A stretch of DNA of 64,000 bases from Stylophora pistillata (Eukaryota). The position numbers and the translations under genes were made by a program. Each line of letters begins with the position of its first letter. Within the stretch, counting starts at the first letter, position 1. Below, one piece after another: positions 4,087-45,300 of the stretch. The stretch is from the NCBI RefSeq assembly GCF_002571385.2, contig NW_019217908.1:150924-214923 (forward strand). Reading direction: 5' to 3'. The notes beneath the pieces are model-generated. The model made no database searches, was not told the origin of the DNA, and saw only the letters and a list, made by a program, of their open reading frames with translations.

Positions 4087-6337
4087 TTAGACTTTAGTTA
4101 TAACCATGCCGTCAGCTGTTAGTTTCGATGAGTGGGCAGAACTTTCCTGGCTGATATCACTTCCGGCTGCCCCGTGTTCTGACTCGCCGTCATCGTCAAG
4201 ATATGATTCGATTTTAGAATTTGAATCCTAAAGAATAAAGAGAGGAGTAGTCAAAGGTTTGTCCTGGGGATGGGACAAAGTGTCCCTCCAGCTGCTTGAA
4301 GCCCCAAATGGGTGAGAAATATTGCAAATTTTAAGCTAGACGATCGAATAAACCTAGATAGAATCGCAACTGAATAAAATTTTGCATTCTGATTGGTTAA
4401 CGAAGCGAGGTATTTAGCGTGGAATTGCCAGTTGAAAACGAAGATAAGTGAGAGTGTTTTACACCTCTTGTTTCGCGCTCAGGATAGAAAAAAGTAATAT
4501 TGTTGCTTTTTATTCAATTATGCGATTTAAGGAAAATCCATAACCTGACTCGCGAATTCCGCGTTTAACAGCACTTGAAAACCGATATCGCACTTCGTAA
4601 TTTATGCCTCATTATCACTAATGCAATTTATACCTCAATATCACTACAGTGTAATGAGGTAATGAATTTTCCTTTAGTATCGATTTTTCACGGGCGTGCG
4701 ACGAAAAGATAAAAGATGCATTCATTGCATGCTGACCATAATAACAATTGCCTTACGATCGACCACACAGATGATCTGTTGAACGGGAAGAGAATGACAT
4801 TCCATCATTTTCCCTTGGCTGAATTCATTTGTCCATTTTAAAAAAGTTCGCACTTTTAATTAAAGGCACAGTTACCTACCTCATGTAACAACTTTATCTT
4901 TTTAATAGGTTCATATACTAATTTTTGAGTATTTGACTAATTTTCCACTTTACCATTTCAACTTTGTTGATATATCCAAACTAATTTTTGAGGGCTGGTT
5001 TGTTACCTGTGATAAGTAGCAGTCAGCCTCGTCATCCCAAATTCTGTCTTCCAATGAGCTATCCGAAAAAAAAGATGTGTTAACCCTAAAGACTAAGGAG
5101 GGTTGTTGTTCTGTCAAATGCCTATTTTGAGGAAAATTTTTAGAAATTTCGCTAAGATTCCACCAGACCTACAAAGTTCTCCATTAGTACCTGGCAATTT
5201 ACGACATTGAGAATACTTGAAATATCTTAAAACGGCGTCTTGCAATGTATACCGTTTGTGACAAGACAATCGTAAATTACCGTTGAGTAATAAGATAAGT
5301 TCTCGTACACCAGTAAATGAAAAACAACATAATGGATTAAACATTTCAATAACTGTACAAATATTTGACTGAAAATCCGATGCCAACATTGCAGTATCTC
5401 TACTTCGGAACAAATCTGCTCATGAGAAAAAGAGCCAGTTTGGTTCTGACCGATGCATCATGTTCTAAGCCCTCTGTATTTGTCACTCTCGTCTAAGGAA
5501 ACCGTCTTTCAAGGTACAGTTTTCAAGCCATGAGAGTGTACCCTGAATAGAGGTCACACTGTGCTAATTAGTGAATTTCACTGCAAACAACTTACTGTCC
5601 TTTCTTAGTGAGCACATAATCTGAGCCGCTGTACATTCCCGGGTCGCTTCCATATGGATGAGACATCCTGCAACAAAAATATGTTTTTTATGAAAAATTT
5701 AACAAATTCACAACGATAAGCGAGGCAAAAAACATATTACAAGTACCACAGAGGGAACTTTCTCGTATTGTAGTTAGTAAATGATTTGTCCGTTAAGGAC
5801 CAAGATTCAATCAGATATCGGAGAAAGGTAAAGAAGTGAGTAAATGTTAATACAGCTTTCTAATACCTGACAGAAGCTACACTCTTGTCTTCAATAGTAC
5901 CAATGACGTCATCATAATACGACCAGGAACCACTAGAAAATAATTTTTACATTACAGAGTAGCTCTGAACATGAAAAGTTCACGAGATTTGCCAGATCTT
6001 GCTTTTAAGCATGTTCTAATAGGATGAAGATATTTTTTTGAGTATTGCATAATATAAAATAAAAATGAAGTGAAAAAGAAATACCTTATAATGAAGGTTA
6101 TTTTACCCACTTTTTTCGAAGAAGAAGTGAAAAATAAAGCTTCCCAGCAAGGTAGTGAAATAGTTGTTCAGTTGTTTTCTGTGTCAGTATGATCATGCTG
6201 AAAAGAAACGGTTCGGGGGCATGGTCGTATCGAGATACAAAAAATATGTGAGCTCCATTTTAAACACCTACTTGCGATTGGTGGTTCCAAGTTTTCTTCG
6301 TGCTCTTGGCGAGTTATACATTTCACGTTTCTTTACT
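4087..6337 (-). CDS. Cadherin cytoplasmic-tail exons (6272-6337, 5867-5932, 5596-5667, 5007-5058, 4087-4227)
   Basis: Phase-compatible exons translate [34 protein letters not shown]...[34 protein letters not shown]...GMVITKV*. No classical catenin-binding motifs seen. Confidence 0.75.
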
Positions 6338-9300
6338 CTAAGAGACAAAATAGTGGATAACGATTCACTTCAAAAATTAAATGGTCCTTAGGCTGGTATG
6401 CGTAAAAGTAGGAGCGTTACCTCTCATGACGGAGGCACGAGTGAGCGTCAATGAGTTGTTACAATCTAACACAGGGAAACCTTGGTTTTGAGTTTTCTTT
6501 CGACATAAAATAGTTACCTGCAACGAGTCTTTAGGGCAAAACACAGACCAAGTAATAACAGCAGCCCAACAACGGATCCAAGGATGATAAGTGCTAGTTC
6601 AGCGTTACCCAAGCCACCGTCCTCCGTTGGAGATTGTGTGGTGGCAGAGATGGGAGCTCTGATTTTCCACCTGGCGTACAAGGTCTCCAACTGGTCAGGG
6701 TACTTTTCAATAGTGCTAGGGTAGAAAAAAAAGATGCCATGTTTGACAATAGCTTGTCTTTTTTCTTTATGAAAAAGCAATACTTGATTCTAATGTTTTT
6801 TTAAGGTGTCTTAAATAGTGAACGGAAAAAAGGTGGGAAAAGTAGCCGAAAAGTAGGTAGCAGTTCAGCATAGAGTAAATTTGCATAAACCATTCCAAGC
6901 TGTTTAAATTTCTCCAAACAATGAAAAGAATTCGCAGCCCTGTGATTACCAAAAATATGTGTCTAGCGAATGAAAAAAATATAGAAGAGAGAGATAGCTA
7001 AGCCTTAACTTCTTCTTCCCAATAAAAAACGGGTTTTTAGTGACATATCAAACAATTATGAAGGTAAAATATTTACCTCAGTACTTCATCGCTAGTCACG
7101 ATGGTCTGAGTATTAACATCAACAGCGTGAAACAACACTTCAGAGTTAACCATCTGTTTACCATCCGTGTTCTCTGAAAAGACTTTGAATATCGCTTCTA
7201 TGTTCACTTCAGCCTCAGTTATGTTATTCAAAACGCTAAGGAAAGAGCACAAAAAAATTAATAATTATGATAAAAAGAGAGACAGCATTCAGAAACAGTA
7301 GAAGACGGTCCAGTGAAGAGAACACGCATTCCCTTTCCCAGAAAAATGATAGCTTCAAATCTATTCATCTAGAAATTATCATAATGCGCAGAGGTGAAGC
7401 TGGGAGGTTGAAGACTACCTCGTGAAATGAGTTCGCTGAGCTAATCACGACACGTATCGACTCGCCTTTGTTTCATGAACGAATCTACAGATCAGATCAT
7501 ATAAAAGACACAATTCAAATGAAATGAATGGAACGTACAAAAGCGACGGAGACGTAATAAAAAAGAAAGAAATCATGGAGGAAGGAAAGAGGTGCCGAAT
7601 GGTGAAATGGTTGGATTATTCAAGTACGGATTTCTGGAAATTTTTCTTTTTCTGAGGCTTCTACTATTGACATTAGAATGGAAACAGGAAACTAAAACCA
7701 AGTAAGGACATGGGATAATCGACTTGTCACGTGCAAATACAAATAAACCAATGAGAATTATCAATCGGGTAGTCTCTAACCTTATAAATTCCTCTTTGTT
7801 TCGATCAATAAGAGATGGATCAACTTCAGCCTTGAGAGTTACTCGTTGCTCATCAATGAGTACAAATATCTGTAGGAAAGTAAGGACGTGTTGCCGGCAA
7901 TAAATACTAGTTACAAATATCAACAGTTCGTCGAGTATTTTACTTTTACGCAAAATACATATGCCATAGCCGATTGAATGGTTTCGGAATTGTGCTAACA
8001 ACTCATGCACGAGTATGATTATTTGGCCTTAATTCTGAAACGAATTCATTTTCGTTTTAATTTTCGTCCGATTTTACTATTCAAAGTTAAGCGACCTTTT
8101 AGTGTATAACATTTCTCAAATAAATCTCAAGGCACTTGAGAGCCACCATAAATTTGCAAACTTTAAGATTGGTTCTGAAGCCACAAAACAAAAGATGTAA
8201 CCAGAGCCAAATATAGTACCTGGACCGTGGCCTCTCCTTCAGCCTCGTTTGTTGGAGGCTTTCCGTGGTTGTCATGAGCGCTGACTTTAATTTCAAACCG
8301 TTCGCCCTTTTTCCCTCTAAAGTTGCTGGCAGTTGTTATGAATCCAGTGTCTTCGTCTATTTTGAAAAAGCCACCATCGTTACCAGAGGATATCCTATAT
8401 TGCACCGCACTAAAGTTACCAGCGTCTCTATCTGTAGCCTGAAATAATTATAATAACTTATAATTAACTATAATTATAATTCTATGGAGAAGCCAATTTT
8501 GCACATGCTCATAGAAACAGCGCGAGTCCCCTTATTCCATACATACACGGTGGTTTGCGGTAGGTCTTGGTAGAGGGGTGCTGTAATCCCAATAGCACCA
8601 AAATCTTTTATAAAAAGTCAACCTCCTCGAAAAAGGACGGCTGTGTGTCCGTATTCAAAAGTCAATTTTTTCACATGCTTATAGAAACCAGTATAACTCC
8701 ACTTATCCCATACATACGCGATGGTTCGCGGTAGGTCTCGGTCGAAGAGTGCTGTAGTCCCACTAGCACGAAATCTTATATAAAGAGTCATCCTCCTTTA
8801 AAAAGGACGCCTGTGTGTCCGTATTAGAAGAGAATTATCTGGATAAAACACTTGCGGAGGTTGTCGAAAACTAGGATATTTCCTTAGGGTTATTTCTTTT
8901 GCTGGCCTTTGAAATAAAAAACATTTGTAAAACATGGTCTCCTTCTCGTACCTTGACTTTCATTATGTACGTGTTAAAACTTGCAGCTTCTGCAACACCT
9001 AAAAAGACAAATTATTCTATTCATTTTCGCCAATGTTTACTTTCGTAATTGAGCACCGGAAAAAAAGCGGACTACCACTGAGTGAAAAATAAAGTAAAAT
9101 ACAACGGGGGCAATCAAGCAAGGGTACGTTAAATCATGGCTTGTTCCCCCCCCCCCCCATTACATGGCTTACGACTTAGTCGACCACTGTGGGGGGGAAG
9201 GTAAAGTATTCCTCACATTACAGAATTATTCCCGCAGAGTATCGTGAAGATTATATTTAGTTCAATTAGTCGATCTTACCTCCAGTGAAGAGCGGTCTGA

Positions 9301-12300: not shown

Positions 12301-15300
12301 TATTTCTCTGCACCATATCCCTCTCTGTCTGACAACTGAAATTCAATGTAGATTGTAATCAATTTAATGAACTAAATCATATCCAGCTATTTATAACTCT
12401 CGAAAATGACATTTACAAACTAAACTAGAATATGTGATGTTAAAACCACTGGTAGATTTTCACCTGTTATTGAGTATGTTATTTCAGCATTTTTCCCGAT
12501 GTCTTTGTCCTCAGCAAAAACCTTTCCTATGGTTGTATTCTCTGGTTCGTTTTCAGTTGCCAGGAAGGGTCCGAAAGTCTAAAATAAAAGAAACGAACGT
12601 CTTCATGGAAAATCGAAATTCATCATTACTTAAAAAAATAAACGTTGCGAATAAAACGAAAATAATAGTAGTTAAATTAACATTAATAACAGAATTATAG
12701 ACGGATTTGAATAAAATACGGTTTTGAAGACATCTATTTATGAAACATCGCTTAAGTTCTAATCTATTCCTAGGTGACCTATATCTACTGAACAGTTAGG
12801 TAATGTTCATCCACTTACAAACCTTCTAGTTTTTTTTACATTTTCGTCTTGAACGTAAGTGATACTACGAGGTCGAATCCAAGTAGTCGGATTGAAGGAG
12901 AAAACAAGCGTATTTCATCACTTGACTAAAAAAACTTAAGCCTGTACACAGACTAAGGTGGAAATGGTGAATCCCTTCCACAAATGTTTACGAGAGGCCC
13001 TTTACGAGCGTCAACCTCGAGCCTCACCTCGACTTGCAAAACCACAAACTTATATACCAAAGGTTAAAGGAAATAAAACCGTGGTAAAAGAAAATATAGG
13101 TGGTCAAAGCTTCCGTACATGAAGGGCCTAACGTACGTTAAGCCTTACATGAAAGGCCTAACGTACGTTAAGCCTTTCACACAAATGAGTAACAATAAAA
13201 ATGAAGCAAACTTACGCTGGTAAAAATGAAGCTAACTTACGCTGGTAAATAGTGGTGTGTTGTCATTCATATCAAGTATCTTCACGTCAACTGTACCGAA
13301 ATCCATATATGGAACTGTGCCCTTGTCACGTGCCATGACGATGAGCTGAGGCAACGAAAATAATCACCAAGTCTTAAAATCATTGTATTCTTATGGATTA
13401 GGTGTATTGATTTACAAATCGAAGGCTCCTGTGAATTTTAGGTAATTAAAATAAACCAAACAGAAAATCTCGAAATATGTTTCTTTTGGTTCCGAAATAT
13501 TTCCGATTGAAAAGGCCATTCCATTTGATTCCCACGAAAACTCCACTTTCCATACGATAGAAAGCGCTCCTCGGTGTTAACGGCCAAACCAAGCAAGTCT
13601 CTAACAGCTCAGAGGTGCAGCATCCGAAGTAGTAATAGAAAAGTAATAGGTCTGACTCTCCCCCCAACCCTCCTCCAGGCTTAAAATCTAAAAGCTTAAC
13701 AAAGATCCCTCCGGAAAAGGTTAACATCACCCAGATAGGCATCCTGGGATTAAAAAAGGTCACTTACCGAATACGAGTCCTTCTTCTCCCGGTCGAGCGC
13801 ACCGGAAGTTGTTATAACTCCAGAAGTGGCGTTAATAACAAACTTCCCTTCCTCGCCATGCATGATGGCATATTCTACTCTCCCATTCATCATGATGTCG
13901 TCATCAGTGGCATTGACGTCATACACAAACGACCCAGTGTTGACATTCTATGGACGACATTTCATAGGTGGGAAAATATGTACTCCAAAGCTTAGCCAGC
14001 AATATTGACGTGAGACTCTTCGCCGTCTATTCGTTACGATCTAAAATATAATTATTCTTTAACATTTGGTGCTTTTACCTTCACAAGTTATTCAATTACC
14101 TCGAAGACTGAAGCCGTGCTCTTCTGCGGTCTTATGACGGGTGAGTTGTCGTTCACATCAGTCAAAAAAAATTCAACTTCTGATTGATCGGTTTTCTTAG
14201 GTTCCCCACCATCCTCTGCGAGCACACTAATTTTCAAGGAGTTGTCAGCTTCACGGTCCAGGGGTTTTGCCACACTTATCTCTCCAGTAATTTCATCAAT
14301 TGAAAAAAGGCCTTGAAATTAAAGTTAGAATTATTAATGGTTTGTTGATGTTAACATTTATGTTAATGAAAATTCATCACTAAGCTGACATGTTTTGGAG
14401 AGGTAATGACGCAATAGCAGGCGCGCCCCATCTCCGACTCCGACTCCGAATCCAAAGGCAGTTTTGGCTCACATCCTGGCTGTCTCATTGTTTTGGGATC
14501 CAGACCGTTCATCGTATTCTCTGCTCTAGCTCTGAAGGTTACAGCCATTATCTTGCATACTGCAATTTCTATACGAGGTTAGCAGTATCAACTTATGCAT
14601 TATGCGTTCATTTTGTAACAGGAACTTAACTCTACTCTCACAATGATAGGAGAAATTACCAGCTTTGTTTCCCGCTGAAATCATGTACCGCACGTTGCCA
14701 TTTTTGCCTACGTCAGCATCATTAGCTCGCACGACTTGTACAACAGTAGCGACGGCTACGTTTTCTACCAATTTCCGCTCATACAAACGGCGAGTAAACT
14801 TCGGAAAATTGTCATTTACATCCAAGACTTCGACGAACACCTGTAAAAAAAAAACACAAATTCTGGCGTTAGAACCTGTCTCTGGCTTGAAAATCATGGT
14901 CAGTGCACTTTAAATATTTATGGAAGATCTTTATAATTACGTGTTTGTAGGGATAAGACAGAAACCTGTTGACAGAATGCTTTAATTGAACAAATATTAA
15001 ACAGCACAACACTAGTGTAAGTTCGGTTGTGTGGACGGACATTTCACGATTTCTCTGCTCGGTAGAGCTTTATATTTCTTCGCCAGGAACTGGTAAGAAT
15101 TACAACTCCTTATGACAATCATGAAAGCAAGTTTTTGTGCTCTAAGACAATATAATTGACCATTACCTCTGCTTCAGAGGAAAGTCTATGGGCCCCATTA
15201 TCAGTGGCTACAAGAGTTAACCGATAAAGGTCCTTTTTCTCACGGTCTAGCGACTCAATAAGATTTAACTGTCCCGTTTCAGGAGAGATGAAAAACGTTC

Positions 15301-18300
15301 CCATGTCATCCTTCAGAGAATACGTGATCTAGGATTTAAATAGAGAATATTACAAGAATTGGAATGTGTCCGCTCCGTGGGCTTGATCGCTAAATTTCCA
15401 GGTAAAAATCTACCGTCCTACCTACATCGTCTAGATTCTTCTTAAAAGCTTAAAAGTCACGAGGGAACCATAGACTGTGCGCTAATAACTACAGATTTAC
15501 TGAAAGAGGTTTTCGTGTGGTTAAGCGCGACCGACACTCGCTATCATTTTTTTCGACGGGCAGTACCAACAGCAGCAACAACCGCGGTCTGTTGAAAGCA
15601 ACCTAACGAACGGTAAAATTGAAGGTTGCGCTGGTAACGAGTGGCTTGCGACGGACTAACAACTGAGATCAGGTTTGGGCCAATTATCATACAGTAATCA
15701 GTAATAAAATGATAAACTCTAAGCTGAGTTCGTTGCCAATCATGTCATTAAGAATTTGGCGAAATGCGAAGGTCTTAGACTAGAATCTTCGGGGCCGACG
15801 TTCGCGACCTGAATAAGCATAAGTTTCAAAGATTATAAGGCTTCTCGTTTAGAATCAGAGGTTTCTAAGCACTGGTCAGCTAAGCTTTTCGAGAAGTAAA
15901 ATGACCAGTATTCAAAACATGCAGGCCGTACATTACCTTTGCGTTTGCTCCGGTATCTTCATCAGTAGCAGTAATCTGATCAAAGTATGTATCCACTTTA
16001 GTATCCTCTGACACGCGCAAAGTGTAGGAATTTTGTGAAAATTGAGGCTGATTGTCATTGAAGTCTGTCACAGTAATGTTCAGGAGAACAAAGGACGTCA
16101 ACTGGGGCTGACCGTGGTCACTGGCAGAAATATTCAGCACGTAGAATTTATCCCTCATTGATTCGTAGTCAAGACGACCAGAGGGACGAACTATGCCTGA
16201 TAATTCTATAAAAAAGAAAAATAAGAATTCAAACAAAAACAATAGCAATAACAACAACATTTGAGGTGATCTTTATCTCTTCACGTCACTTGGGACTGAA
16301 ATTTCTATATTATTCAAGAGCAAAAACAACAAAACAATCAAGCTACGCAGTTTACCATCATCCGTCAAAGTGTAAAACAGACGAATACCAAATTTAAGAG
16401 CACAATTTGCCAAATAGCCGTATATTTGTACCAAAACGTCCTGTGTTTTCAAGACCAACGGTCCTTCGAAGGCAATTTTGTAGTATTTTTATTGGAGAGA
16501 GTTGAAAGAGAGGTCCTTAAAATCTAAAGGATACAAACTTATTCTCCAAGCCGCAGCAGCGTGTAGTGTTTTTACGGGACATTTTCAAAGAATTCAGTTG
16601 ACGAAAACTCAAACTTCCTCATTTTTTATTAGGAATGAGTTTTTGAATCTTACCTTCAATAATGAACTTGTCGCCGGCACCATCGACAATGTTGTAAGAT
16701 ACAGCAGCATTGCTGCCTTCGTCAGCGTCCAGAGCTGTGACCCTTATAACCTAACAAAAAGCAAATAATTAACGTAAAGTTACCTTGCACATCCTGAAAT
16801 CCCATGTTGTTAGTGCAGCTGTTCTCGATAACATACCTGATATCCACCAAAGGCGTTTTCCGGAACTGGTGCAGTATATTCTGGTCGTGTAAATACTGGT
16901 GGATTATCGTTGGTATCTATCACCAGGACTTCAAGAGTTGTGTTACTTCTCAAAGGGGGGCTGCCTTTGTCTTTGGCCTGAGAGGAAGGGAAAACAAACC
17001 TCTAGTTTTTAACGGGTCACCCTCTCTTGTCGAGCTTTGCGTTGAACAAAAAGGCTCGTAGGAGGCAGCTTCTGTTCATTTATTTCTTACACATTCATTA
17101 GATGATTTATTTTTTGGCATTATTTATACAGGCATATTCAATTTCGCCAAGGCTGGTAAAAACAGGGTCTTTAAGATTAACATGTAGTACTAATGTTCTA
17201 TAAATTGTCCAACCGGTCTCGTTTCCATGCTTTCATAATCATCGTCCTCACACTTACCTCCACAGTCATGATATACTTTTCCTGCAATTCACGATCCAGA
17301 CTATATGAAGTACTAACATAACCAGTGTCTGGATCAATGATGAAAGGCAGGGTTACTAAAATTGAAAAAACAAAATCCAATTTTTTCTCACAATAGACGT
17401 TAGTGCAGGGGCGTAGCCAGGATTTTTCAAAGGGGGAGGGGGGCACAGAGGCTACTCACCATTTACACCGTTGCTCTCCCACGTGTATAAGCGGGCTCAG
17501 TTGTATTATCGCGGCATGAAGGCCCATATCAATGGCTTTTACGGCCAAGATATTGTCATGGCGTTTTCGCCACCTGAATATCGTAGGTTGTTTGCTCTAA
17601 AGAAGACCTACCAAGGGGGGGCCACGGGCACCCCAGGACACCCCTGGCTACGCCCTTGTAGTAGTTTTGCATAAATTGAATCAAAAGAACAAAACTGGTT
17701 CCAAGGGATCCGAATCTGTGGGCGCTGTGTTAACTAAGAGAGTTTGACGGCAGTGCTTCTTAAAGGCCAGGTTACCTTCGTCTTTCCCAGTGGACTCGCA
17801 TCCGTAAAGTTCCAGCCTCATGCAAATCCTGCCATTCCACGACTGAGGATGAACTCGCACGTAACGTGCGTGAAATGGAGGAAGAACACGATTCGTGTTG
17901 GTACTACCACCATCATTGTTGCCCTGGAAAACCTACAGGGGAAACCATGGTATCAGGAGCAGGCTGACTCGTACAGGCTATAGCTTTAATAGCTTACCAA
18001 CGAGCTATCTGTGGCTCAATGGTTGAGCATTAGATCACGAAATTATTTAAGGTCCCATTCTCCCAATTGAAAGACTTTAAATAGAGAGAGAAAACAGACA
18101 GGCTTTACATTCAAAATTGCAAAGAAGGTTATTTTAGATCAACCAAAAGCATGAAATTTCTGAACTAAACTTGACTTCAGTTAAATCGCACTTGCATTCG
18201 AAGATTCAATGCAAATCAATTTCCTAAGTTTAGGAAGAAAACAAGTCGCATATCTTGATGTTAGAACTTTGCGGTTTCTATTTGACTTTCTGTCATACCA

Positions 18301-21300
18301 CTCTGTGGAATTCAAAGGAGCTACCATCCAAACTGAACGACAGTTTGAAAGTTTTAACGTAATCGTTGGATCCAGGCCTCCCCTGTGTGGCAACTTTTGT
18401 AACCTTTCGCATTCCTCGAAAGTCAATCTGCAGATATTGTTTTTTGTTATTCGTTGCTGCACACCAAGCCCCTAAAAAGAAATAGACAAGGAAAGTATAA
18501 CTACCCTGCTTAATTATTGTTGTTGACGTTTTTATCGTTTTTTGTCGTTGTTGTTGTTGCTTTTTTAACTGGTGATATTAATGCAGATTTAAAAAAAATA
18601 CCAGTTTACTTCCTTTTCTTAACATACGCTCCGTGAGGTTTTGGTTTTGGTTTTCCACCACTCATCCGAAAATCCCTCAACTCATTCAACTCATCAAAAA
18701 GTTCAAAAGGCTCCAAAATATCTAAAGATCGTCACTTGAAGGAGTATCTTTGATACATTTAACATTTTTCAGCCACTCGATGTGTTTTATATTCTTCTCT
18801 TTTATTACAAACGTCAAGCAATGCTGTCAGTGAACAATCTTTATTAATTGTCTTTTTACCTTTGTAAGATATCCCAAACTGGTTAAAAACTTTGTTATTT
18901 AGTCTCCCCTGTGTTGGTGAGTAATCCTCGTTAGGGACAGTGTATGTACTTGTGGCTCGAGTGTCGCTGGCTTTGACGTCACCTTTCTCCAGTCCCAGAG
19001 GAGTCTCGCAGTCTGAGTGAATCGAGATCATTGACTGCCCTGGGCCTGAAAATAAGAAGACACGTACAATATAGCCCAAATGTAAGCTATTAGTTTCGAC
19101 TCACGAGAACTGCGGAGCAACCAATGACCAGCAACCATGGTCCTCAATGGCCTACCATTCAGAAGCAGAAGTAGTACTTTTACAAAACAATTTGACCATT
19201 TAGTGCTGCTTTGTGACACAGTTGCAGTTTCATTGCCTTTTTTGCGCTTCTGAAGACAGGGCTGCCATTTCGAGCCGTAGCAGCTCATCTGTGACATGAC
19301 TATGTTGCATGGCATTAATGTGTTTCCGTTGATTGTATCTTAAAACTCGATGTCCTCGTAATCTCATGCGTTTGGATAAACTTTTACATAGCTTAGTTCC
19401 AAAAAGTGCTCAAATTTAAAAAAATATATATGTACCAAAATATTGGAAAATTTACTAAATAAAGACAGATTCTTCCAAAAATCGCCGGACGACAATGTTG
19501 ATGAAAGTTCTATCTGATAATGTATTGGAATTCACTTAAAATGACTGTCTTACCAATATTCGCGTGAGTGATGGCATACTCAAATACAGCGTTCTCCCCT
19601 GCGTCGCTATCCAGCGCTTCCACACGACCGACTCTTGTTCCAAGAGGCACATCCTCCATGACGGTCATTTTGTGAGGAGAAAGGAACTGGAAATGAGGAG
19701 CGTTGTCGTTTTCGTCAGTCACATGGACGGTCACCTTTAAAAAGAAAGAAGCTTTAAAACAGAACTTATATGGTAGGCCCTAGACTTTGAAATCTGGATT
19801 AAGAGTTTTGGAGACCTAGTATGATGCACACCTTGATTCTCAGAAAAATAGATATAGTACCGCCTTTACGCAAACGGCGACGGCAAAAACGGTAGAAATT
19901 CATTTTGTTCCCCTTCGAGTGTTTATGGATTACAGCAAGAGTAAAAAAATTGTCTTAATAGCAGCAGTTCATCCATTTCTAGCATAGATGTATACTTACA
20001 TATCAGAAAACAAAAAATTAAATCAGAGCCAAATTTTGCTGTTCGTTGAACTGTAGCCTACATTAATGTGGACTGCTATGTGGGTTTATATGATACAGAC
20101 GAATAAGGTTTGATGACTTTGAATTATATCCTCAGTGCATAAGGATAGTCGAAAAGCTAGCTTCTACCCTTTCTGTAACCAAACAAGTGCAATGACTAGG
20201 AAGATTGAGGAACAGATAGCGGCAATTTAAGATTTAAACATAAGTCCTCTACCTTAGTGTGTTGTTTGATTGTTTTCTTACCGAAGTGTAGCCACTGAGC
20301 GGAGTTTGTCCGTTATCCATGGCTGGAACGGTGAACACATAATCATCACGAACTTCTCTGTCTAGCAACATCAATGTCGAAATTTCGCCCTATATGGGAG
20401 TTTGTAAATACTATTTTTGTTAGATGCAAAAATTTCTAAAATCCAAGTTTTATTTTCCCCAAACTGAAGAGAGAAGAACTTGCTGCCTTTCTATAACATC
20501 AAGAAATGGTTAAATATTCTAGTCTTCTCGGATAGGGACGAACAAATGGAGGTCCCGTCTCCTGCAGGGTTGGGGAAGGAGACGTTAAATTCCCACACAC
20601 GAGATTACTGTGTGATTCCTTTCATCTAGATCACCCCACAGTAGCGCATGTAAAAGATGCAACCTCTGCCTAAAAGAAAAACTACTCCTCATCTACCGAC
20701 CTGAATTACCATCAGTCAATAAACGTAATGAGCTTGTGTCCTCATGCCGCCACAGAAACAAAGTATTACTACGCAATAACTGAACAAAGCACTACTGCGC
20801 ACTAACTGAACAAAGCACTACTGCGCAATAACTGAACAAAGCACTACTGCGCAATAACTGAACAAAGCACTACTGCGCAATAACTGAACAAAGCACTACT
20901 GCGCAATAACTGAACAAAGCACTACTGCGCAATAACTGAACAAAGCACTACTGCGCAATAACTGAACAAAGCACTACTGCGTAATAACTGAACAAAGCAC
21001 TACTGCGCAATAACTGAACAAAGCACTACTGCGCAATAACTGAACAAAGCACTACTGCGCAATAACTGAACAAAGCACTACTGCGCAATAACTGAACAAA
21101 GCACTACTGCGCAATAACTGAACAAAGCACTACTGCGCAATAACTGAACAAAGCACTACTGCGCAATAACTGAACAAAGCACTACTGCGCAATAACTGAA
21201 CAAAGCACTACTGCGCAATAACTGAACAAAGCACTACTGCGCAATAACTGAACAAAGCACTACTGCGCAATAACTGAACAAAGCACTACTGCGCAATAAC

Positions 21301-24300: not shown

Positions 24301-27300
24301 AGAGTAAACTCGCTCGTGAGCAGGGCCAAATGTTTGCCCTACGTGTGCGGCAAAAGCGTCTTGCAAGGATCAATGTAAATAGGAGAGTTACTTTTGAGTC
24401 TTCTACAACATGGAAGAGTTCATACAAACTCTACAATTTACCAGGACACCGCATTCCTTCAAAAATGGAAGTTTACAATGTGCTTCATGGAGAGTTTAAG
24501 GCCAAATAGGTTCTAATCGCATAAGTAAAAACGTGGTATTGAAAAATGCTAACGATCCATTCAACTATTCTTCAGAAAAAGGTTTGTTACAGACTATCAT
24601 TCCGCCTCACAAAGTTATCTTTTAGCCTATCTGTACTCACCATGTTCACAGTCGTCCCAGCTATGGAGTTTTCCATTATATTCCCAGTATACATAGCTTG
24701 AGTAAACTTTGGTGCGTTGTCGTTCACATCTACTACTGTTACAAACACTGTAGCAAAAGCCTACAAAGAAACACAGGATTGAATCGAATATAATATCAAA
24801 AGGATAGTCTTAGCCATCAATGAACGAAATATGTATCTATTTAAAAAACTAAATCAATGAAACCTCCTGGATAAATGATTTGATTGGTTAAGAGAGTGGG
24901 ACAAATTGGGTCGACCAATAACAGAGCTTTGTAACACGAAACCGATGCAATCTCGAATTAATATCGACATTCAGTTGAATATTGCTGATTTTTTTTTTCT
25001 TAATATTATTGCTTGAATATTACCTTCCTACTGAGTGGAACTCCTCCGTCAGCCGCGGTCACAGTTAGAGTGTAGTTGTTTCTTTGTTCCCGATCAACAT
25101 GACTTTTAACTTTAACCGTTCCATAACTTCCCTGCACGAAAAGTGCAAGAACAGACAAGAGTTCAATGTCAAGGACAAAATTATTTATATGTTTTATACT
25201 TCCCAAAGGATATTTCCAAAAGATAATTCATTCATTGATATCCCACTTTCTTTAGAAAGAAATTAAAACGACTTCAATTTAAATGACTGACATGCCTTTT
25301 CTGTATATTGTTTGCTATTTTGTTCACTCTTGCTTATCTCAGTACCCGTTTCTCTCATCCACCACTTCTATATACTTTATCTTCCTTCTTTCACAATCTA
25401 ATTTAGGTAGTGGGGAATTTTCAGAATTTAATGTGACCATTACAAACTCTAAGCTTGATCGTATTCCGTTACACTGCCGTTGTTCTGAGGGGCTCTCAAT
25501 TTTTTTAAGAAAAAGACCTCATTGTTGGTGTACCTGCGTATCGACAGTGAACACAGAGAAAGGATCCCCTCAAGTGACACTGTAGGTAATCCGAGCGTTT
25601 TGTCCGCTGTCCGCATCTGTTGCTGTAACATTTATTAGGGCTGTCCCCACGGGTGAATTTTCAAACACAGACACTGTGTAGTTGACCGGATCAAAGACTG
25701 GGTCGTTGTCGTTTATATCACCAACTTCAATGTAGACTTGAGTCTAAAGAGAAGTAAAATGCATTACGATATGGAAGTCAATGCTCCACAAGCTAATGTT
25801 AAAAGGTCTTGATCTGAGAGCTCCATAGAACAATAAGGAAACACTGCAAATGCGTAGATTAAGAATTTTTTGACGACTTTATCGAGAAAAAAATTGAGAG
25901 GGAATAAGAAAAATTGGCGATGACTGAATAAAAAAAAGCCTCTGGACCTTTGGCGGCCAAATTGATTTTTAGACACGCGCTTTTCTACCTTCAGTGCCAC
26001 AAAAAACTAGAGTGCGCTGTAAAGTAAAGCAAGGGAATAGGTGTGAAAAAATGGGCATATTTACTTAGGAAATGACTGAAGTCTCGTAAAAGATGCTAGA
26101 AAGTTTATACTTACCGTTGCAATCCGTGCAGGTTTTCCTTGATCTGACACGCCAATGGTAAGATTGTAGGAGAATGTCTGTTGTCGCTCAAGATTCTTGC
26201 GAGTTCTGATCATGGCTGTCTGAGGATCCAGCGAAAAATCGCCTTTTAAAAAAAAATAAGGGTTCAATTTTGTTAGGTATGTGATAGTTTCAATAAAAAA
26301 TGCTCCTTCTCTTGAGGTACTATTCATTAAATAATAGAAACGTCAGTCATTGTCAAGGACTCAGTGTAAAAGCCTTCTTTCTATGACCGGGCGACCACAC
26401 TATGTGATCGATCGAAAATATACTTTGGACAGGGGTATGATCCTTCGGAAATTAGATCTGTTGGGGTTCGAAGACTAAAGAATGAAGTCTGTGGAATTTA
26501 ATGCGCGCGCCAACAACTGCAAATCAGAGAGAGTACTAACATACCTCCTGTGTTACCGGATATCAACTCGTAAACAAGTTTCCCATTATTTCCAGCATCC
26601 GGGTCAACAGCAACTGCAGCAATGACGTCACTATTAGCTTTGGCTCCTTCCGATATCTTAACATTGTATCCATTAGGTGGGAACAACGGTGTATTGTCGT
26701 TTATATCCTCGATAAGCACATGTACCTGAAAAGAGAGTTTCCAGTTTCCATGGGCAAGCAAGCAATTTCTTTGAAATAATTGCGTATAAGATATGCAATA
26801 TTAACCATGGTTGAGTTCTCAAAATAATCATGATTTAAACGTCGATTGTAGACTTACAGACAGCGAAGTAAAAGGTATCAGAAAGTGTAGTGTGATTGTT
26901 GGTTTTGGTCCAACAAAGAACTGTTGTCGGCGATAATGAAGGAAATCTCGACAACCTTTGCGAGATTTTCGAAGTGTAATTCTATATCGCAATTCTATAT
27001 CGCAAAAAAACGTTTTTACTTTTCGTTTTCTTCTACACCACCCCCATCCTGATGAACAACTTCACAAAATAGAAGGGCTGAGGAAAAGGTAGATAGAAGG
27101 AAAGGATCAGTTTTGACTACGATTGACGACGAAACAACGACACACTGCAAGCAATCAAAACGTTCATCGATAAATGCAAATAGGAGGATCATGTAAAAGT
27201 AAGATTCTCATAAACAACGGAGCTTCGATAAATTACCGTCGCTGTATTTCGCTGTTTAGGCGAGCCATGGTCAGTGGCAGCGACCAATAACGTATACACT

Positions 27301-36300: not shown

Positions 36301-39300
36301 CTAACCTATCACAGGATGTCCTCGGGTGTTATAGCGCCTACAATTCAACTATTTACCATTAAAAAAGCTTCTTTCAACCGTAAAAGGTTCCTTCTCAGGA
36401 AGGTCCCACAACACAATAACCCCTCGCTCCGAAGCTAAGCGCACTAACCTCTGACCGACCGCATTACCTATATCATCTTACCTAGTGCGTTTAAAAGGTA
36501 CCCCGGCGATATGTGACCGCAATTTAAGGGACTCAGGATTGAGAGGTCTGGGCATGAGATCTGGCGGGATCTTTATGTTGTGCTTTTGGCCAGGACACTA
36601 AACATTACTTGTGCCTCTCTCCACCCAGGAGTATTAGTGAGTAGCGGAGCTGAACCGTCAAGAAAGCCTCACGAAATTCTGTGGATTAACCTGTAATGGA
36701 CGTGCATCTTATCATGTGGGAGCAGCAAGTCGGGATAAGTTACAGAGGGAGTGCCATTCAGCTAAACAGAAAACTTGTACTATTTGGGACCCGAAAGAAC
36801 CTGGGTACAATTTCAGCGATGCATTGCAACAACTCCACGCCCAGAAACACCGCCTCAAGCTAAGGTAAATTAAATAAGCATGTTATTTAAGAAGAAATGA
36901 CAGAAATTCTTTTTTCACTTCACCTGCAACGCGACAAATCCTACACTAGAATGCTCCAGAAGATCTGCGAAGTAGCTTGCATTCTCAAATACCGGTGGGT
37001 TATCGTTCGCATCCAGGACTTGCATTGCCACAACGGTTGTATTGTATCGAGGGTGAATTGGATCTAGATCCATTGCACGTACCTCGAAACTATAGTTCGC
37101 CTTGGTCTCTCGATCCAGTACTCCAATGGCAGTTATTACGCCATAGTCTGACAGTGCGAACTTGTCTTTGTACTGGGGAGAGCTTGGCATATCTTTCCCC
37201 GTAACATGTCCTGGAATTGAAATAGTTCATTTCATAAAACCTAACCTGAAAGACCCACAGAGTAACTAATTGATCAATGGATGCTGAAGGAAGGACGAAC
37301 CGATTGACATAAAATTGCAATAAATATATTTTATCTCGTTGCCCTGAGGTTGTCAATTGGTCGTAGGGCAATAAAGGGGATACAAAGAAAGAAAAAAGGG
37401 AGATATAAATAAATTTCATTTCCAATTTTGAGGCCACTGACGTTTAGGAGCAACATTAAAGGACAGCTTGAAAGCATCGAAATTTGAATGCTGCAAGGCA
37501 AAGTGTAAGGAACACATCTATAACATAATTTTTAATATTACCGGACTGAAAATTTCAACTTTATCTGATCGTCGCTGACCTCAAAACTGAAAGACAGACT
37601 AATTCCTCATTTAAATTCATGGTTCACATTTTGTACCGAAACCATTTTCTTATGACAAATGGGGTTTTGCCAAGTTTGGATTTTGCCAAGTTACTACTCG
37701 TGACAGAGATGAAGACGTTTTATCAACACCTACGTGATATTTTATAGGAATGCAGGACTTCCTCATCAGTAAGGCGCTTGCGCCAAATTAGAAGATCGCT
37801 GACCGATAAGTTTCCATAATACTGAGGACTCTCAACATTGTTAGGTTTGCCAATGGTCAATGAGGTGAAAATATCGCTTCCACGTGTTACTTTCTCTGGG
37901 GCTTGTGTAGATGCGATCAGTTGTCCGTCTTGAAAGTAACGTAACCCTGCCTCTACACTCCATGTAAAAGTGAAGTAAAACCAATCCTGTATTTATCGAA
38001 AAAAGGGCAATTTTAATTCAATGTGAAAGCGATCAAAAATTTCTTTTCCTACACTTCGCTCTGTGATTGGTCTAAAAAATTGCTTCACTGGTAAGGTATG
38101 GTAAATTAAGCCAACATAATGCTATAGTCAGAATGTGTTCTCAACTGAACTTTGATAAGCCTTTGATTCTTAACAAGTTTTGCCTGCTGGTGCTAAGAGT
38201 GGAAGAGGAGGTTGAAGGGCTCTTAAAAGCTATTATTCTGAAGAATCAAATTGATCATAATGAAACATTTTGAGTTCAATTCTCGGCGTAATGCCATGAT
38301 TTCAAGGATGACACTCAAACGCACAATACTCGAACTGTCCTGGAACTGTATCTACTGAAACTCTCGACCAGACAGATAATTTAAAGTCGTTTGTATAGAT
38401 TCGCTTTGATATCTCATTGGCGTTCTCAAACAATAACTTTCTAATAGTGACCTCTGATCGGATCTAGATGTTCAAGCGCTCTGTTGTCGTTTAAACAAAG
38501 TCAACTTCATATGTTCAGTGTATCTGATTTATCATCACGGGTTTATTACGAATCAACTTAACGGCCTGCTCCCAGTTGGCTTGTTAGCTCAATTGGTAGA
38601 GCGCTGCACTAGTATCGCAGAGGTCAGTGGTTCGAATCCCGTACAGGCCTGATTTTTTTCAGGTCTGATTTTCGCTATTGCATAAATAGCGCTATCTACT
38701 GCGAAGGATCGTGCATCATACGTATTTAATACCGCAGTTCAAAATATATGAACTTCATATATTCATTGTAAAGTCAAATATTGTTCCAAAATTGATTTGG
38801 ATCAACAGGAACATTTAAAACCATATCTTACCGTTGGTATGTCGTTCAATTTTAGACTCCATTCACTAGTGGAGTTTTGCAAAACCAGCCTAAAGTCACC
38901 AGCCGCGGACTCCCGATAAAAATCGAATCCAGTGGCAAACCCTGACGCTCCGCCTGATGATATAACGTACTGACCAGAGACGAACTTTACCCAGAATGCA
39001 ATGGAGAGCCCTTCTGCACACAAACTCGGGTTACTAATGCAGTTATCTGGAAAGCAATACGAAAGTTAAGACATGATCTGAATAGTTGTTTTTAGTCGTT
39101 GTTGTTGCTTTTTTTGTTTGTTTGTTTGTTTGTTTTAGTTTCTTTTCTTTTTTTTTTTCTTTTTTTGCCTCCATCATGAAGTTTAAACGGTCAACTGACA
39201 ATGAAATAAATTTTCTCAATCGTGTGGGGCTTGAAAAACTACCAAACGTCATAAGACTCGGTAACAAAGATTAGAGCGTAGGAACGGTATAAAAGCGCCA

Positions 39301-42300
39301 TTGTAAAAGTTTCCAAAGCCATTCAAAGCCAAGACTCTCGATCTGGTTGTACTTCAAAACATTCATTTCAAGATGGCATGTATTTTTAAAATTAACGTCT
39401 CCCGCTCCTACTTCTGGAAAGGGAAAATCAATTAAAGAAAAATCCACAGTGTTTGACAAAAGTCGAGAATGTCGCCTTCACCTATAGCTTACGTTTCCTG
39501 TGAAAAGCCTGAGTCAGGCACATTACAAGGAATGGCAAACATGGCTTGACAAAAACGGCATAATCTTTTTAAGGAGCATGGTGCTTGGTGGGACGATAAA
39601 ACTCGAGAAAATACTTGGATCTCTGAAGGTGTCTCATTTTTTCCGAGCATTCTATTGAAACAGGAGAACTTAAGTTTGTATTCTCTCGATTAAAACCCTT
39701 TCCATATCATTTACCACCGCAATAAGCTGCCTTTCTGAATGAAAATCCAAAATCGGCCACTAGTGTCCAAAATCCAAATCGGCCATTGGTGTCCAAAAAC
39801 CAAAATTGGCCACCAGTGACCAAAATCAAAAATCAGCCACTGGTGTCCAAAATCAGCCACTAGTACCCAAAACCCAAAACTGGCCACTAGTGTCGAAAAT
39901 AAAATATCGGCCGCTGGTGTCCAAAGTCAAAAATCGGGCACAAAGGTCCAAATACAAAAATAGACAGTCAAAGACTGTATGTGGCTACTGGTATAACACA
40001 GTTTTTAAAGCACTGAAAATAACTAGAGGTTGTATAGAGACGCTAAAGGTAGTTTTCCAGAATATACACCTCACATGCAAAACGGGGAACCCACCGCATC
40101 CCCACTTATTTATGAGTACCCTGTTTCACAAGAGAAAGATAAATCAAGAACATTTTGTCTTATTATCCAACTGTGCTTCGTAGAGTACAAATAACGCGCG
40201 AGACGAGTACAAATATCACGCGATATTTGTACTTCAGAAATATCCGCGAAATTTTCCCGCACTGAAATAACAATTTGGCGTGTTGGATAAAAAATCTCTT
40301 ATTAGACGTTTTGTTGTGTACGGCAGAACTCGTAAAAATACTCAGCGATACTACACAACAAAAGGTCTAAAAAATTTATTGATTTTCAACCAATAATTAA
40401 ATGGTAACAAATAATACTATTAACAATAATACTGATAACAATAGTAATGTAATAATAATTAAAAGGGGCTAGCTAGAAAGCCTCATAGTTCCCCTATCCA
40501 ACAATAATTATCAATGCTTCTTTTAATTTCGCCTGCTAATCGTTAATAATTTTCTCATCTTATTGCATTTCCATCTTTTTGAGACTTTTGAGACTTTAGT
40601 TTCATATCGCTGTGATTAGAGTGACTATGTGACTATTTAAGCGTGACTACACGTGACCACGCGTGAACACGCAAGCAATGCATGAATAACTCACGCTAAC
40701 AAAACGAATTGATGAAATGAGGTATTGTGATGTCATATACACAAAGACTGAAACTTTGTCACAAAGAAAAGGCAAAAAAAAAACAACTGTGAAAACTTCT
40801 CATGCCCAAACATAATCTGTATTGAAAATCCCCCGTAAAAAGCGATTCATGATTTGTGACGAAAACCTTGATTCGAAACTATATTTATTGCATGACTCAC
40901 CAGATGTGATTATTTATTCATGAGGGGAACATGTCGTATCAGGTATCAGTCACGCACTTACATCACTGACTGATTCAACTTTTCTGTTCAACCATTCACA
41001 TGCGTTTCTGAAATTTATTACAAATAATCTCGTCTTGGCAAAATCCTTCTTAATGCATATCTAACGCAAGAGGACATTCGTCTGATTAAAATAAATCCTT
41101 CCTTCCTTCGTTTGTCTCTATATTGTAATGCAGACGTCATAGGGTCCATAGGTGAACTGGTCGACATAATCATAATCGAGGGCTTCATTTAAAACCGAGA
41201 TTTTAGCTGATGAGGCCTTTTGAATGTGTCATTGGCTTTCATCTTAGTACAAAACATACTGTGAAGTGTGTGTTTGAAGAGTAAAAGTATCCTCAAAGGA
41301 TTATGTTTTCAGTTTCGTGCCATTTTCCTTTCAAATACACTACAAACCCTCACTTGACGCCAGATTAACATAGTGACATTGCTTATGGAGAGGAATGTAG
41401 CAATACAACTTAAAAAAAAGGAGCCAGAGAGGTAAAATCGAAATGATGAGGTCAAGTAGCGGCGAGGGGTGTCGGATTCATGTGAGATAACCCTCAACCA
41501 TCCGGACCTCGAATTTAGTTATAGTGGGTTAACATCTATATATGGTTCGGGTTAGACTATCCGGTGATTATGGTAAGTGTATATGAATAGATGACTTTCC
41601 TTGCGCACGCGTAGGTAAGAGTTTATAGAACGGTGTGATGAAAAAACTTTCAACTGTTGACTCGTTTGCGTCATAAGAAAGAGGAAGCATTTTAAGGCTC
41701 ACGTATGGATTCCAAAATTAACCGATCAAAATATTCCTATTTCTTCAACTAGTTCATGCAATGTTTTAATCATTTTCGATGAAAACCAAAGTTGTCTAGG
41801 TATTAAAGAAGAGCCGGACTCAGTCGGAGCAGCTAAGGGATAGACGATGGTGGTTATCCGTTCGCTCCTCTAGAATTCATATCATTTATTTTTGTTCTTA
41901 TTTTGATTGTTTGTTTGTTTGTTTGTTTGTTTGTTTGTTTTCTCTATGAAATTTTTTTTTTATTCTTATTCATACTTTAAACCTGAGAATACTTTTTAAC
42001 ATGCATTGGTGTATATTCATTTCCTGTAAGGAATAAAGTTTCATCTTTCAGCTAAGTTTCTCAACCGCAGTTAGAAATATGAAAGAAGAAACAAGAAAAA
42101 GAAACTGTAAAAGGAAGTCAAGTTATGAGAAGGGTAAAGGGGGGGAATGGTAACCCTTCTCATACGGACCTCGAACTCCAAGTTAGTCTACGTTAACTTT
42201 TATAATTTCCTCTCCAAACGATTCAATAACTGTGGTGCACAATATTGGATATTGCCGTGAACACGCGCAGTACAGACAACGGTTCCATCTAAGTGTCCTC

Positions 42301-45300
42301 TGCGTTTTGACTAATCAATTGTGACGAAACGAAACAGAAATTAAATACTCTCTGACAATAAAAAAAATTGTAAAAATAACAATAAAAAAAAAAAAAATTC
42401 ATTTATTCGGATTTACTGCACCAGAGTCACCTTACGACGGATCATATCCAGACTTCCGCTTAAGAGACTACGCGAACAACACACGATAACAAATTACACT
42501 AAATTGTAGGAGAATTGAAGAAATCTCAAAGTAGAATTAAAAATTGGCTTCATAAGCTTCCTCAGAGCTTTATATATATATCTATAGGACCTTCTTCAAA
42601 AACACGTTCCGCTCTTTCAATGATATAATGTAACTTTAAGGTCGACATGCAAAGTAGACGCGAGTACTGTATGCAAATTTTTGTTACGCTTTGATAGACC
42701 AGATGAAACCGTCTCAAAATTTTAATTTCGAGGCAACCGAATGTAAAGCTAGTTCAGTTTCGATGAAAATGAAATCCAAGGGTAGAACTGTAAAATTATT
42801 GTATTCATTACTGCTTACTATCGAAAGATCGAGCGAATAATTTTCATAGGGATCGTATTTGCATGATATCATGTTTTGGAACAAACAGCTTAAGGGCCAC
42901 CTGTAACCTGGGTAACCACCTGACGTCATAGATAACGCAATCCCTATAAATCTCACGCTTTCGTTTTCGAAAGCTGCAGAATGTACGAAATAAAAAATTG
43001 CGCTATCTTGACAGTATTCCCTCTGAAGTGTTTTCCTTTTCTTATTCCGGCATTTTCTCTTAAATTTGTTTAACCTCAAAAATGAAAAGTCAGGTTAAGC
43101 CCGAGAGCTAGAATGTCAGGGCTGCTGTAATTATTTGCTAACCAAATGATCATGAACAAACAAATATAAATTTCTCTCTGACGATGCAAATGACACTGAG
43201 GAAAGACTCTATTTTTTGGATGGCGTCGAAGCGACATTTCTCCGGTTTTCATTCTCTGGGTAGAATAGTCCGTGCTGAGACCTTCCATAAAGCTTGTTAC
43301 CATTCCTATAAGTACACTTCAAAGTTTACGCAGGTCAGAATTGGCAACAAAGTACCACGCAAGAACATATTTGAAATGCGAATTCGTTTGAATGTTTTGA
43401 CGGAGGTTCCTGGTTCGTTAATTTATCGCTCGAGAAATTACGACAGAACATTTGATTTGCTGAAAGCGTAATGTCAGAAGTTATAATTCTCGTCAAGGCT
43501 ATAGATCCCCTATTTTACCAAATTTATTGAACATGCTTGATGGTTTAAGCTAGCTTTAATTTCCAAATAGCGGCCGGTGTAATATTAAATGCGTTGAAAG
43601 ATTTTGATCTGACAACCAATGACTCCTCTCCAACCTGTAAAGAGCTTTCAACAGATAGTAAAACAGAGATGAGGTCTAGTGAGTGGACGAGGGGTGCTGA
43701 TTTCTAATGGGTAACCCTCGACCGTCCGGACCTCAGAAGTAGTGAGAATTATGAAGGTATTTATACGGTTCAATCTGTTCATCTAACCCTTGTGGTGCTC
43801 TACATGCATTAACGCAGGCGCAATTGAAATCAGAACCAATTAGGAAAAACTTAATTAACAATGCAAGGGACAGGGAGTTCAGAAGGTTGGTCATAGGAAG
43901 TTATGCATGGATGGATTTCTCTACCAAGTGAAGGTTACGCGAGAATGATATCTTCTTGTTTTTATGTTGTGCAAAAACACTTTCTAAATAAATGCAAGTG
44001 TCAAATAATAAATAAATAAATAACTTAGCAATGAACATTCCACTGGGTGGCTCTTCTTGGCCACTGTTTCCAGATCGAATTGGAATTTAGAACGTTGGTT
44101 TTATGCGGTGGGAGGAAAACCGGAGGACCCAGAGAAAAACCCTCGGAGCAAGGACGAGAACCAACAACAAACTCAACCCACATGTGACGCCAGGTCCGGG
44201 AATCGAACCCAGGCCACAGTGGTGGGAGGCGTGTGCTCTCACCACTGCGCCATCCCTGCTCCCCCAAAGGCAAGGGAATACTGGAAGGTCGAATTATGGG
44301 CTGCAACACTCAGCTACAGATTTCCTTCCACGCGATCATTGTCAAAAGATGTATACTATTGATATATTTGGAGTTTTCGCTTGCTAGCGGGGCTTCATAC
44401 CAGGTTATGTTTGTGACAATGATTGAAAGAAATGTTTGAACATAAACCTCGTCGCGTTTACTTTCTTCGAACCCAACCAAACAATAATGTCACAAAAGTA
44501 TTTCGCGAAAAGAAATGACATGGCAAATGTCCTCACAGTTAGCTAGAACTTTTTTTCACTCTTCTTTGAATGTCTTAGTTGTGTTCACATGAAGGAATAA
44601 GAATACCGCTGACAGGAAAACATACGACTGATTGAGGAACATTTATGATCCACTGCTATAGGTTGGAAATAAACATAAATACCTTTGAAGTCTCCCATTA
44701 GTAACCAAGCCTCAGATGCTTCAAGTGACACCACATTGCCGAGGTCTGGGTCAAAGACTACTTTCGCACCATTTTTTAACTCTCCTTGGACACCAGCACG
44801 CACGTCCAGGACCTTGCCAGCATCTTCACGGTCAAGTGGCCATTGATGATCACGATAAAAACCTGGAGTACAAAGGACAAAGTGGAACGTCCATTAAAAA
44901 CTCTTAGGGTCCATATGGCTGTTCGAGTAAGAGCTGTGAAACCTAAACAAAAGTTTATAAAATGGCTAGGAAAAAAAAAAGGTAAGAACACCAGCCTGAT
45001 GGACGTCGACGCGTAAAATGAGAGTGACAAAATGGTAACTGGTTTTAGTTTGTATTGTTTGAAAAGGGAATGCGAGAGTTATAAAAAAATCACATTGTGT
45101 AAAAAAGAAAAACCCTCCAACCGCTACCTGTTCGAGACGTTCAGTTTGTAAAACAGAGTGCGATAGTAAAATTAGGGGTACGATAGTAGTTGTGAATGGA
45201 AAAAGCAGGAGGCCTGTGCCGGGTCAGAAAAATGAGGGAGGTTTGGGTAATAGAGAATCTCTCCCACAACCTGTTCCAGATGTTCAGTTAGCAAAACAGA

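What the first reader, a model, noticed from the sequence alone, without database searches (positions are those of the whole stretch)
17258..19734. Discoidin (F5/8C) domain inserted at the same loop of another repeat (EC28)
Seen: ...[21 protein letters not shown] | full F5/8C domain in three exons | [23 protein letters not shown]. The insertion point (between the Y-x-I strand and the F-x-I-D strand) and the intron phase pattern 1-1-0-1 are the same as for the LamG insertion. Inference: two independent shuffling events used the same permissive phase-1 intron position, decorating a tip-link-like filament with lectin, lipid or collagen-binding modules.
Basis: partly seen in the sequence, partly recalled or inferred. 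Interest (0 to 1): 0.72.

Follow-up and report, generated by a model that had tools for sequence, protein, structure and literature searches.

The report
Discoidin domain nested inside coral cadherin
A giant coral cell-adhesion protein carries a whole discoidin domain spliced into the middle of one of its cadherin repeats, an old and conserved build that likely gives the filament a sideways-pointing binding arm whose partner is untested.

Summary
Three exons encode a complete F5/8C (discoidin) domain, 172 aa, inside the C-D loop of repeat EC28 of a 36-repeat, CDH23-like coral cadherin. RNA joins all four introns; the first acceptor is 19045, not 19012, and no skip joint was listed. The insert is under purifying selection in other corals (dN/dS 0.02-0.10). 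An intronless distant orthologue (about 45% identical) carries it at the same site with the same length, but lacks the LamG-like insert of EC11. The two inserts therefore have separate histories. The 'same intron, same 1-1-0-1 pattern' argument is weak. The C-D loop holds 7 of the gene's 14 insert-free phase-1 introns, and the two insertion points differ by one codon. One internal intron is missing in relatives. F5/8C is a common phase 1-1 module in this genome. The two halves of EC28 are predicted to refold as one normal repeat, with the discoidin as a side arm. Factor V/VIII lipid spikes are absent and DDR collagen residues are only partly kept, so the ligand is unknown. I found no description in the papers searched, but key reviews were not held.

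The parts
19554..19734 (-). Exon: last strand of EC27 plus first half of EC28 (strands A-C), ending in a phase-1 donor in the C-D loop
19046..19553 (-). Phase-1 intron (508 nt); RNA-used acceptor is 19045, not 19012
18860..19045 (-). F5/8C exon 1: 12-aa linker, first Cys, loop 1 and extended loop 2
18299..18471 (-). F5/8C exon 2 (AWC to TQGR core)
17776..17932 (-). F5/8C exon 3 ending in the closing Cys plus a 7-aa linker, phase-1 donor
17258..17355 (-). Second half of EC28 (strands D-F, DRE motif)
16837..16977 (-). End of EC28 (F-G strands, DTNDN) and start of EC29
37734..44862 (-). LamG/ConA-like insert in the C-D loop of EC11: exons 44862-44683, 39046-38832, 37986-37734; phases 1-1-0-1 by sequence only
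   Evidence: absent from L012; junctions not RNA-tested
6518..7869 (-). CDH23-like membrane-adjacent domain (MAD) and single transmembrane helix
6518..61261 (-). Host gene: 36 EC repeats, MAD, TM; collinear with L012 over its whole length; 5' end, part of EC10 and the cytoplasmic tail not resolved
25570..25572 (-). In-frame TGA in the EC22 exon of this assembly; a run with the same species label (type not on record, unspliced contigs) has a sense codon here

Best explanation
This is a spliced, conserved F5/8C (discoidin) domain nested in the C-D loop of repeat EC28 of a CDH23-like non-classical cadherin; it likely entered as a phase 1-1 exon module and is predicted to hang off an intact repeat as a side arm that likely binds an extracellular protein or glycoprotein. 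Shown: exon structure, splicing, selection, and the same site and length in a distant orthologue. Predicted: EC28's halves refold as one repeat. Inferred: the discoidin's two ends lie together at the barrel base, tied by a disulfide as in DDR2, so it fits into a loop without breaking the repeat, and its binding loops face away from the filament about eight repeats from the membrane. Inferred: the LamG-like insert in EC11 is a separate, probably later event that used the same intron-rich loop.
For: Splicing. dN/dS is 0.02-0.10 on the insert exons (10 pairs) and 0.02-0.11 on the flanking EC exon (9 pairs). L011/L012 encode EC-half, F5/8C, EC-half in one open frame with the same 172-aa insert; the F5/8C is 49% identical, against 42% over the 2835 aligned residues from EC12 to the MAD. 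Orthology rests on full-length collinearity and a shared divergent LisH/SRP40-like neighbour. All 33 other L012 repeats aligned span both halves with one gap at the insert. AlphaFold2 gives pLDDT of about 95 for both halves, which superpose on single EC repeats at Z 15.7, rmsd 1.0 A over 107 residues. Calcium motifs at both ends of EC28 are intact in the coral model. Paralogous modules have phase-1 flanks, with at least 150 matches in the genome. DDR2's termini lie at the barrel base, linked by Cys30-Cys185, with ligand loops at the top (PMC2807035, passages).
Against: No ligand, location or phenotype was tested. The EC model was fed an alignment of whole repeats, so it leans toward reassembly. 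The discoidin part was unfolded in that model (pLDDT under 50), and the second model failed (mean pLDDT 35.9), so the arm's geometry is inferred from DDR2 rather than predicted. Read depth was low (1-5 raw reads per joint in X21, none in X24), so a skip isoform is not excluded. This assembly has an in-frame stop upstream in EC22. The lineage of L012 is unknown, so the age of the insertion is only relative.
Confidence: 0.6

Rival explanations
1. The insert is a cis-dimerising or bundling arm: discoidins on parallel filaments bind each other or a neighbouring repeat, as retinoschisin-type discoidins oligomerise (recalled).
For: The extended loop 2 is kept at the same length in coral, P0123-P0125 and L012 and is longer than in the 16 paralogues aligned. 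Retinoschisin is among the PDB relatives.
Against: No interface was tested. No spare cysteine for interchain bonds is shared: the coral domain has four Cys, which would pair internally.
Confidence: 0.2
2. It is a lectin arm (discoidin-I/CBM32-like) binding mucus, microbial or symbiont glycans.
For: Pfam F5_F8_type_C_2 (galactose-binding) matches at E 3e-8; discoidin-1 matches at E 1e-13.
Against: Much closer relatives are factor VIII/V and neuropilin domains (E 1e-32 to 1e-27). No sugar-site residue was mapped.
Confidence: 0.13
3. It binds phospholipid membranes like factor V/VIII C2 or lactadherin.
For: The best PDB matches are factor VIII and V C2 domains.
Against: The spike-1 hydrophobic pair (Met-Phe in FVIII, Trp-Trp in FV) aligns to a polar, acidic loop, and the FVIII Leu-Leu pair falls in a gap. 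The role of these spikes in membrane binding is recalled, not from a call.
Confidence: 0.04
4. It is a tolerated passenger or an annotation artefact (a nested separate gene or chance exon capture).
For: F5/8C modules are very abundant in the genome and the skip would stay in frame.
Against: RNA joints, strong purifying selection and the intronless orthologue with the same insert.
Confidence: 0.03

Closest known systems
Cadherin-23 / protocadherin-15 type non-classical cadherins (PDB 8TRI, 6EET)
   Same: Long EC array followed by a MAD and one TM helix. The last EC plus MAD of L012 aligns to mouse CDH23 EC25-MAD28 over 214 residues. A coral/L012 MAD profile hits two named cadherin-23 proteins at about E 1e-14.
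   Different: 36 repeats rather than 27 (27 recalled), nested F5/8C and LamG-like domains, ordinary EC repeats only about 33-36% identical, and tail not alignable. One-to-one orthology was not tested.
Sea-anemone CDH23-like polypeptide of hair bundles (PMC3899209, passages)
   Same: Very large cnidarian cadherin called CDH23-like.
   Different: Described with 44 repeats and three membrane helices; no laminin or coagulation domain is mentioned in the main text. Probably another gene; sequence not compared.
Cnidarian classical, Fat, Fat-like and Dachsous cadherins (PMC4948710, 10.1101/488270, PMC7430989, PMC4890752; passages)
   Same: About 30 EC repeats; LamG domains occur in several.
   Different: As described in those passages, their LamG/EGF domains form a block apart from the EC array rather than sitting inside a repeat. 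This gene model has a MAD and no EGF/LamG block before the TM.
F5/8 type C (discoidin) domains of factor V/VIII, neuropilin, DDR2
   Same: Full-length match with both terminal Cys; a Cys eight residues before the last one, matching the DDR2 Cys177-Cys185 spacing.
   Different: Nested in another domain, whereas in the 17 stored proteins inspected (mostly cnidarian by name) F5/8C lay in tandem or between domains, by eye. Lipid spikes absent, loop 2 longer.

Membership tests
F5/8 type C (discoidin) domain | Pfam PF00754 above cut-off over the whole model | tested here: met
   L012 insert 92.4 bits, model positions 2-126 of 127; coral exons 51.7 and 32.7 bits
F5/8 type C (discoidin) domain | Terminal Cys pair closing the barrel | tested here: met
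   Both Cys present in coral and L012 and aligned to factor VIII C2; the bond itself is inferred
F5/8 type C (discoidin) domain | Beta-barrel fold in a confident model | tested here: inconclusive
   Both AlphaFold2 models were low-confidence in this part
Cadherin EC repeat (EC28) | Seven-strand repeat with calcium motifs (xE, DxD, DRE, DxNDN) | tested here: met
   Motifs intact; 33 of 33 other repeats align across both halves; model superposes at Z 15.7
CDH23/PCDH15-type cadherins | Membrane-adjacent (MAD/SEA-like) domain before a single TM | tested here: met
CDH23/PCDH15-type cadherins | Orthology to CDH23 by phylogeny | not tested
   No tree built; most stored long cadherins carry no names
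CDH23/PCDH15-type cadherins | Tip-to-tip binding and location in stereocilia or microvillus links | not testable with these tools
   Needs localisation and binding assays; the N-terminal end was not resolved
Classical / Fat cadherins | EGF and LamG block between EC array and TM | tested here: not met
   EC36 is followed by MAD and TM in coral and L012
Factor V/VIII-type lipid-binding C2 | Hydrophobic spike pairs (role recalled) | tested here: not met
DDR-type collagen-binding discoidin | Trp52, Asp69, Arg105, Glu113 and Cys73-Cys177 (PMC2807035) | tested here: inconclusive
   By spacing from the Cys residues, Trp52 corresponds to Tyr and Asp69 to Lys/Gln, and the second Cys pair is present. 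The Arg mapping rests on a recalled motif; no DDR2 alignment was displayed
Class 1-1 shuffled exon module | Phase-1 introns on both flanks here and in paralogues | tested here: met
   paralogues 9 of 9 5' and 13 of 13 3' flanks found by motif among 23 copies, not RNA-checked

The most novel reading that the evidence does not exclude
An undescribed, ancient cnidarian lineage of CDH23-like link cadherins uses the C-D loop as an expansion port for whole domains. The nested discoidin (and, in corals, a LamG-like domain) forms side arms that cross-link stereocilia or microvillus filaments to each other or to the mucus and matrix layer.
Probability: 0.15. Interest if true: 0.68.

Novelty: new variant of a known kind. 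Interest (0 to 1): 0.42.

Why it matters
Cadherin ectodomains are treated as unbranched strings of repeats. A folded 172-residue domain kept inside one repeat across distant lineages shows that the C-D loop can carry whole modules while the calcium-binding ends stay intact. That gives a natural model for branched adhesion filaments and a ready test construct (EC27-29 with and without the insert). It also explains why domain scans of such proteins miscount repeats. The way it arose, phase-1 exon shuffling, is ordinary.

Tried and rejected
Acceptor 19012: rejected. Skip isoform: not among the 15 joints listed, with 2 more not shown and low depth. The 1-1-0-1 pattern as a signature: rejected. Full-length named orthologues were not retrieved: the word search stops at 2000 residues and the representative search ranked generic long cadherins first. 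Among stored proteins, 0 of 270 cadherins carried F5/8C and 0 of 150 F5/8C proteins carried a cadherin motif; this is a biased set. The Nematostella partial model P0021 (58% identical) omits the region, so it says nothing about the insert. Mixed EC plus F5/8C alignments misaligned, so no model has both parts confident; the second fold failed. The ESM Atlas gave only leads at 0.78 or lower. The lineage of L011/L012 was not resolved. Skeletal proteomes: the single A. digitifera cadherin is a classical one (PMC4890752, passages); the octocoral papers list protocadherins without an F5/8C link in the passages seen; supplements were not read. Earlier scan notes: nothing on this gene; the eight loose matches were other systems. 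The cytoplasmic tail could not be modelled reliably. No complex prediction was run.
Full report
Observation. On the minus strand the exons 19734-19554, 19045-18860, 18471-18299, 17932-17776 and 17355-17258 are bounded by GT-AG, join in frame and give phases 1-1-0-1. Pfam places F5_F8_type_C on the second and third insert exons and Cadherin on both flanks. The window lies in a 398-Mb genome, and runs labelled coral hold the stretch. Of 4 runs laid, 3 show all four introns (508, 388, 366, 420 nt): X21 with 2, 2, 5 and 1 raw reads, and X1 (RNA by guess) and X2 as contigs; X24 shows none. A 6096-nt X2 contig runs from 13769 to 23662 across the insert. The first acceptor is 19045, not 19012; it is kept in 9 of 9 related loci, whereas the AG at the 19012 position is missing in 7 of 9. 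No skip joint was among the 15 listed; 2 were not shown and depth was low.

Host gene. A metagenome scan returned 12 loci. Ten are 81-93% identical in the first insert exon, and nine of these show the EC half-exon, a phase-1 intron and then that exon. L011 and L012 are intronless and hold one long open frame, 4248 aa in L012. It is collinear with the window gene from end to end and shares a divergent LisH/SRP40-like neighbour (E 6e-11; weak LisH match). Spliced alignment gave a model of 36 EC repeats, a MAD and one TM helix; the insert is in EC28 and the LamG-like insert in EC11. Part of EC10 was not found near an N, and EC22 holds an in-frame TGA where run X18 reads a sense codon. The MAD resembles that of cadherin-23. 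There is no EGF/LamG block before the TM, so this is not a classical or Fat cadherin.

Conservation. dN/dS is 0.02-0.10 for the insert exons (10 pairs) and 0.02-0.11 for the flanking EC exon (9 pairs). L012 has the insert at the same site with the same length (172 aa; linkers of 12 and 7 residues) and 49% identity, against 42% from EC12 to the MAD. Over 517 shared columns coral and Nematostella are 58% identical, and each is 45% identical to L012. L012 therefore lies outside the coral-anemone pair or evolves fast; its lineage was not resolved. L012 has a plain short loop in EC11, so the LamG-like insert was gained later or lost there.

Structure. All 33 other L012 repeats aligned span both halves of EC28 with one gap at the insert. 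AlphaFold2 on that alignment gives pLDDT of about 95 for both halves, and the model superposes on single EC repeats (best Z 15.7, rmsd 1.0 A, 107 residues). That alignment favours reassembly, the discoidin part was unfolded, and a second model failed. The discoidin geometry is taken from DDR2, whose termini lie at the barrel base, joined by Cys30-Cys185, with ligand loops at the top (PMC2807035, passages). Both terminal Cys are present here. I infer a side arm pointing away from an intact filament.

How it arose. F5/8C exons have at least 150 matches in this genome. In four stretches holding 23 copies, the flanks found by motif were phase 1 at 9 of 9 5' ends and 13 of 13 3' ends (not RNA-checked). 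The internal phase-0 intron was placed at the same or the neighbouring codon in 13 of 23 copies, and the K|GAW phase-1 intron in 0 of 23. Homologues P0123-P0125 also read through that point. The match of 1-1-0-1 with the LamG insert is thus a coincidence; only the symmetric flanks matter. In the host gene, 7 of the 14 insert-free phase-1 introns inside EC repeats lie in the C-D loop (EC3, 15, 19, 21, 31, 33, 35), after 4 to 9 residues from the strand-C Tyr (three of them RNA-confirmed). Two random insertions into such introns would both hit this loop about one time in four (7/14 squared). The inserts sit after 7 and 8 residues, so they share a loop but not a demonstrably shared intron.

Function. 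The closest solved relatives are factor VIII/V C2 and neuropilin b domains. The hydrophobic pairs of FV and FVIII align to a polar loop or a gap (their membrane role is recalled), which argues against lipid binding. By spacing from the cysteines, the second DDR2 Cys pair is present, but Trp52, described as indispensable for collagen binding, corresponds to Tyr, and Asp69 to Lys/Gln (no alignment displayed). Loop 2 is longer than in the 16 paralogues aligned and is kept in the orthologues, which makes it a candidate binding surface. Best guess: lateral binding to an extracellular protein or glycoprotein (0.6), then self-association (0.2), lectin (0.13), lipid (0.04), passenger (0.03).

Comparison with what is known. 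In 17 stored F5/8C proteins inspected by eye, the domain lay in tandem or between domains. Nine paper searches and passages of ten papers on cadherins, matrix or skeletal proteomes gave no description of a discoidin inside a cadherin repeat. The anemone CDH23-like protein is described with 44 repeats and three membrane helices (PMC3899209, passages). [quoted passage not shown] Public gene models probably carry the domain mix, but proteins over 2000 residues were outside the word searches, so I could not check. Earlier scan notes held nothing on this gene.

Verdict. Real, expressed, conserved and structurally unusual, made by an ordinary shuffling route, with no known ligand. New variant of a known kind; interest 0.42.

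Noticed in passing
window 25570-25572 (-): In-frame TGA in the EC22 exon; run X18 with the same species label has a sense codon, so this is an assembly error or a nonsense allele of this individual.
   Followed up: partly
window 47082-47702 (-), N near 47270: Exon(s) for the middle of EC10 not found; probable assembly gap.
   Followed up: partly
L011 1-9154, L012 1-14721: Gene-dense, intronless animal contigs: the cadherin, an FN3 receptor-like gene, an MCU gene and a LisH/SRP40-like gene each lie in one open frame, while the coral orthologue has about 80 introns. Lineage unresolved.
   Followed up: partly
L017 1310-1399 (+); L012 3-1073 (-): Head-to-head LisH/SRP40-like neighbour conserved between coral and L012.
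   Followed up: partly
window 9376-9837 (-); L012 about 12810-12850: The F-G loop of EC35 carries a basic insert in both (RPRER in coral, a long Arg/Lys run in L012), a possible furin-type cleavage site near the membrane (motif recalled).
   Followed up: no
window 4090-4227 (-): A candidate last exon ends in ITKV-stop, which resembles a class I PDZ ligand (recalled); its link to the gene was not shown.
   Followed up: partly
window 17430-17660, 20470-20600, 27745-28100: Intronic repeats with very high read depth in RNA and other runs; the first is a partly palindromic element inside the intron after F5/8C exon 3.
   Followed up: no
L013-L016 (G000 C45, C15, C1181): Long tandem arrays of mostly two-exon, phase 1-1 F5/8C modules, a large donor pool for shuffling.
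   Followed up: partly
L019 (G000:C246): A paralogous LamG/ConA-like module with a similar exon break after its first segment, suggesting that the EC11 insert also came from a mobile family.
   Followed up: partly
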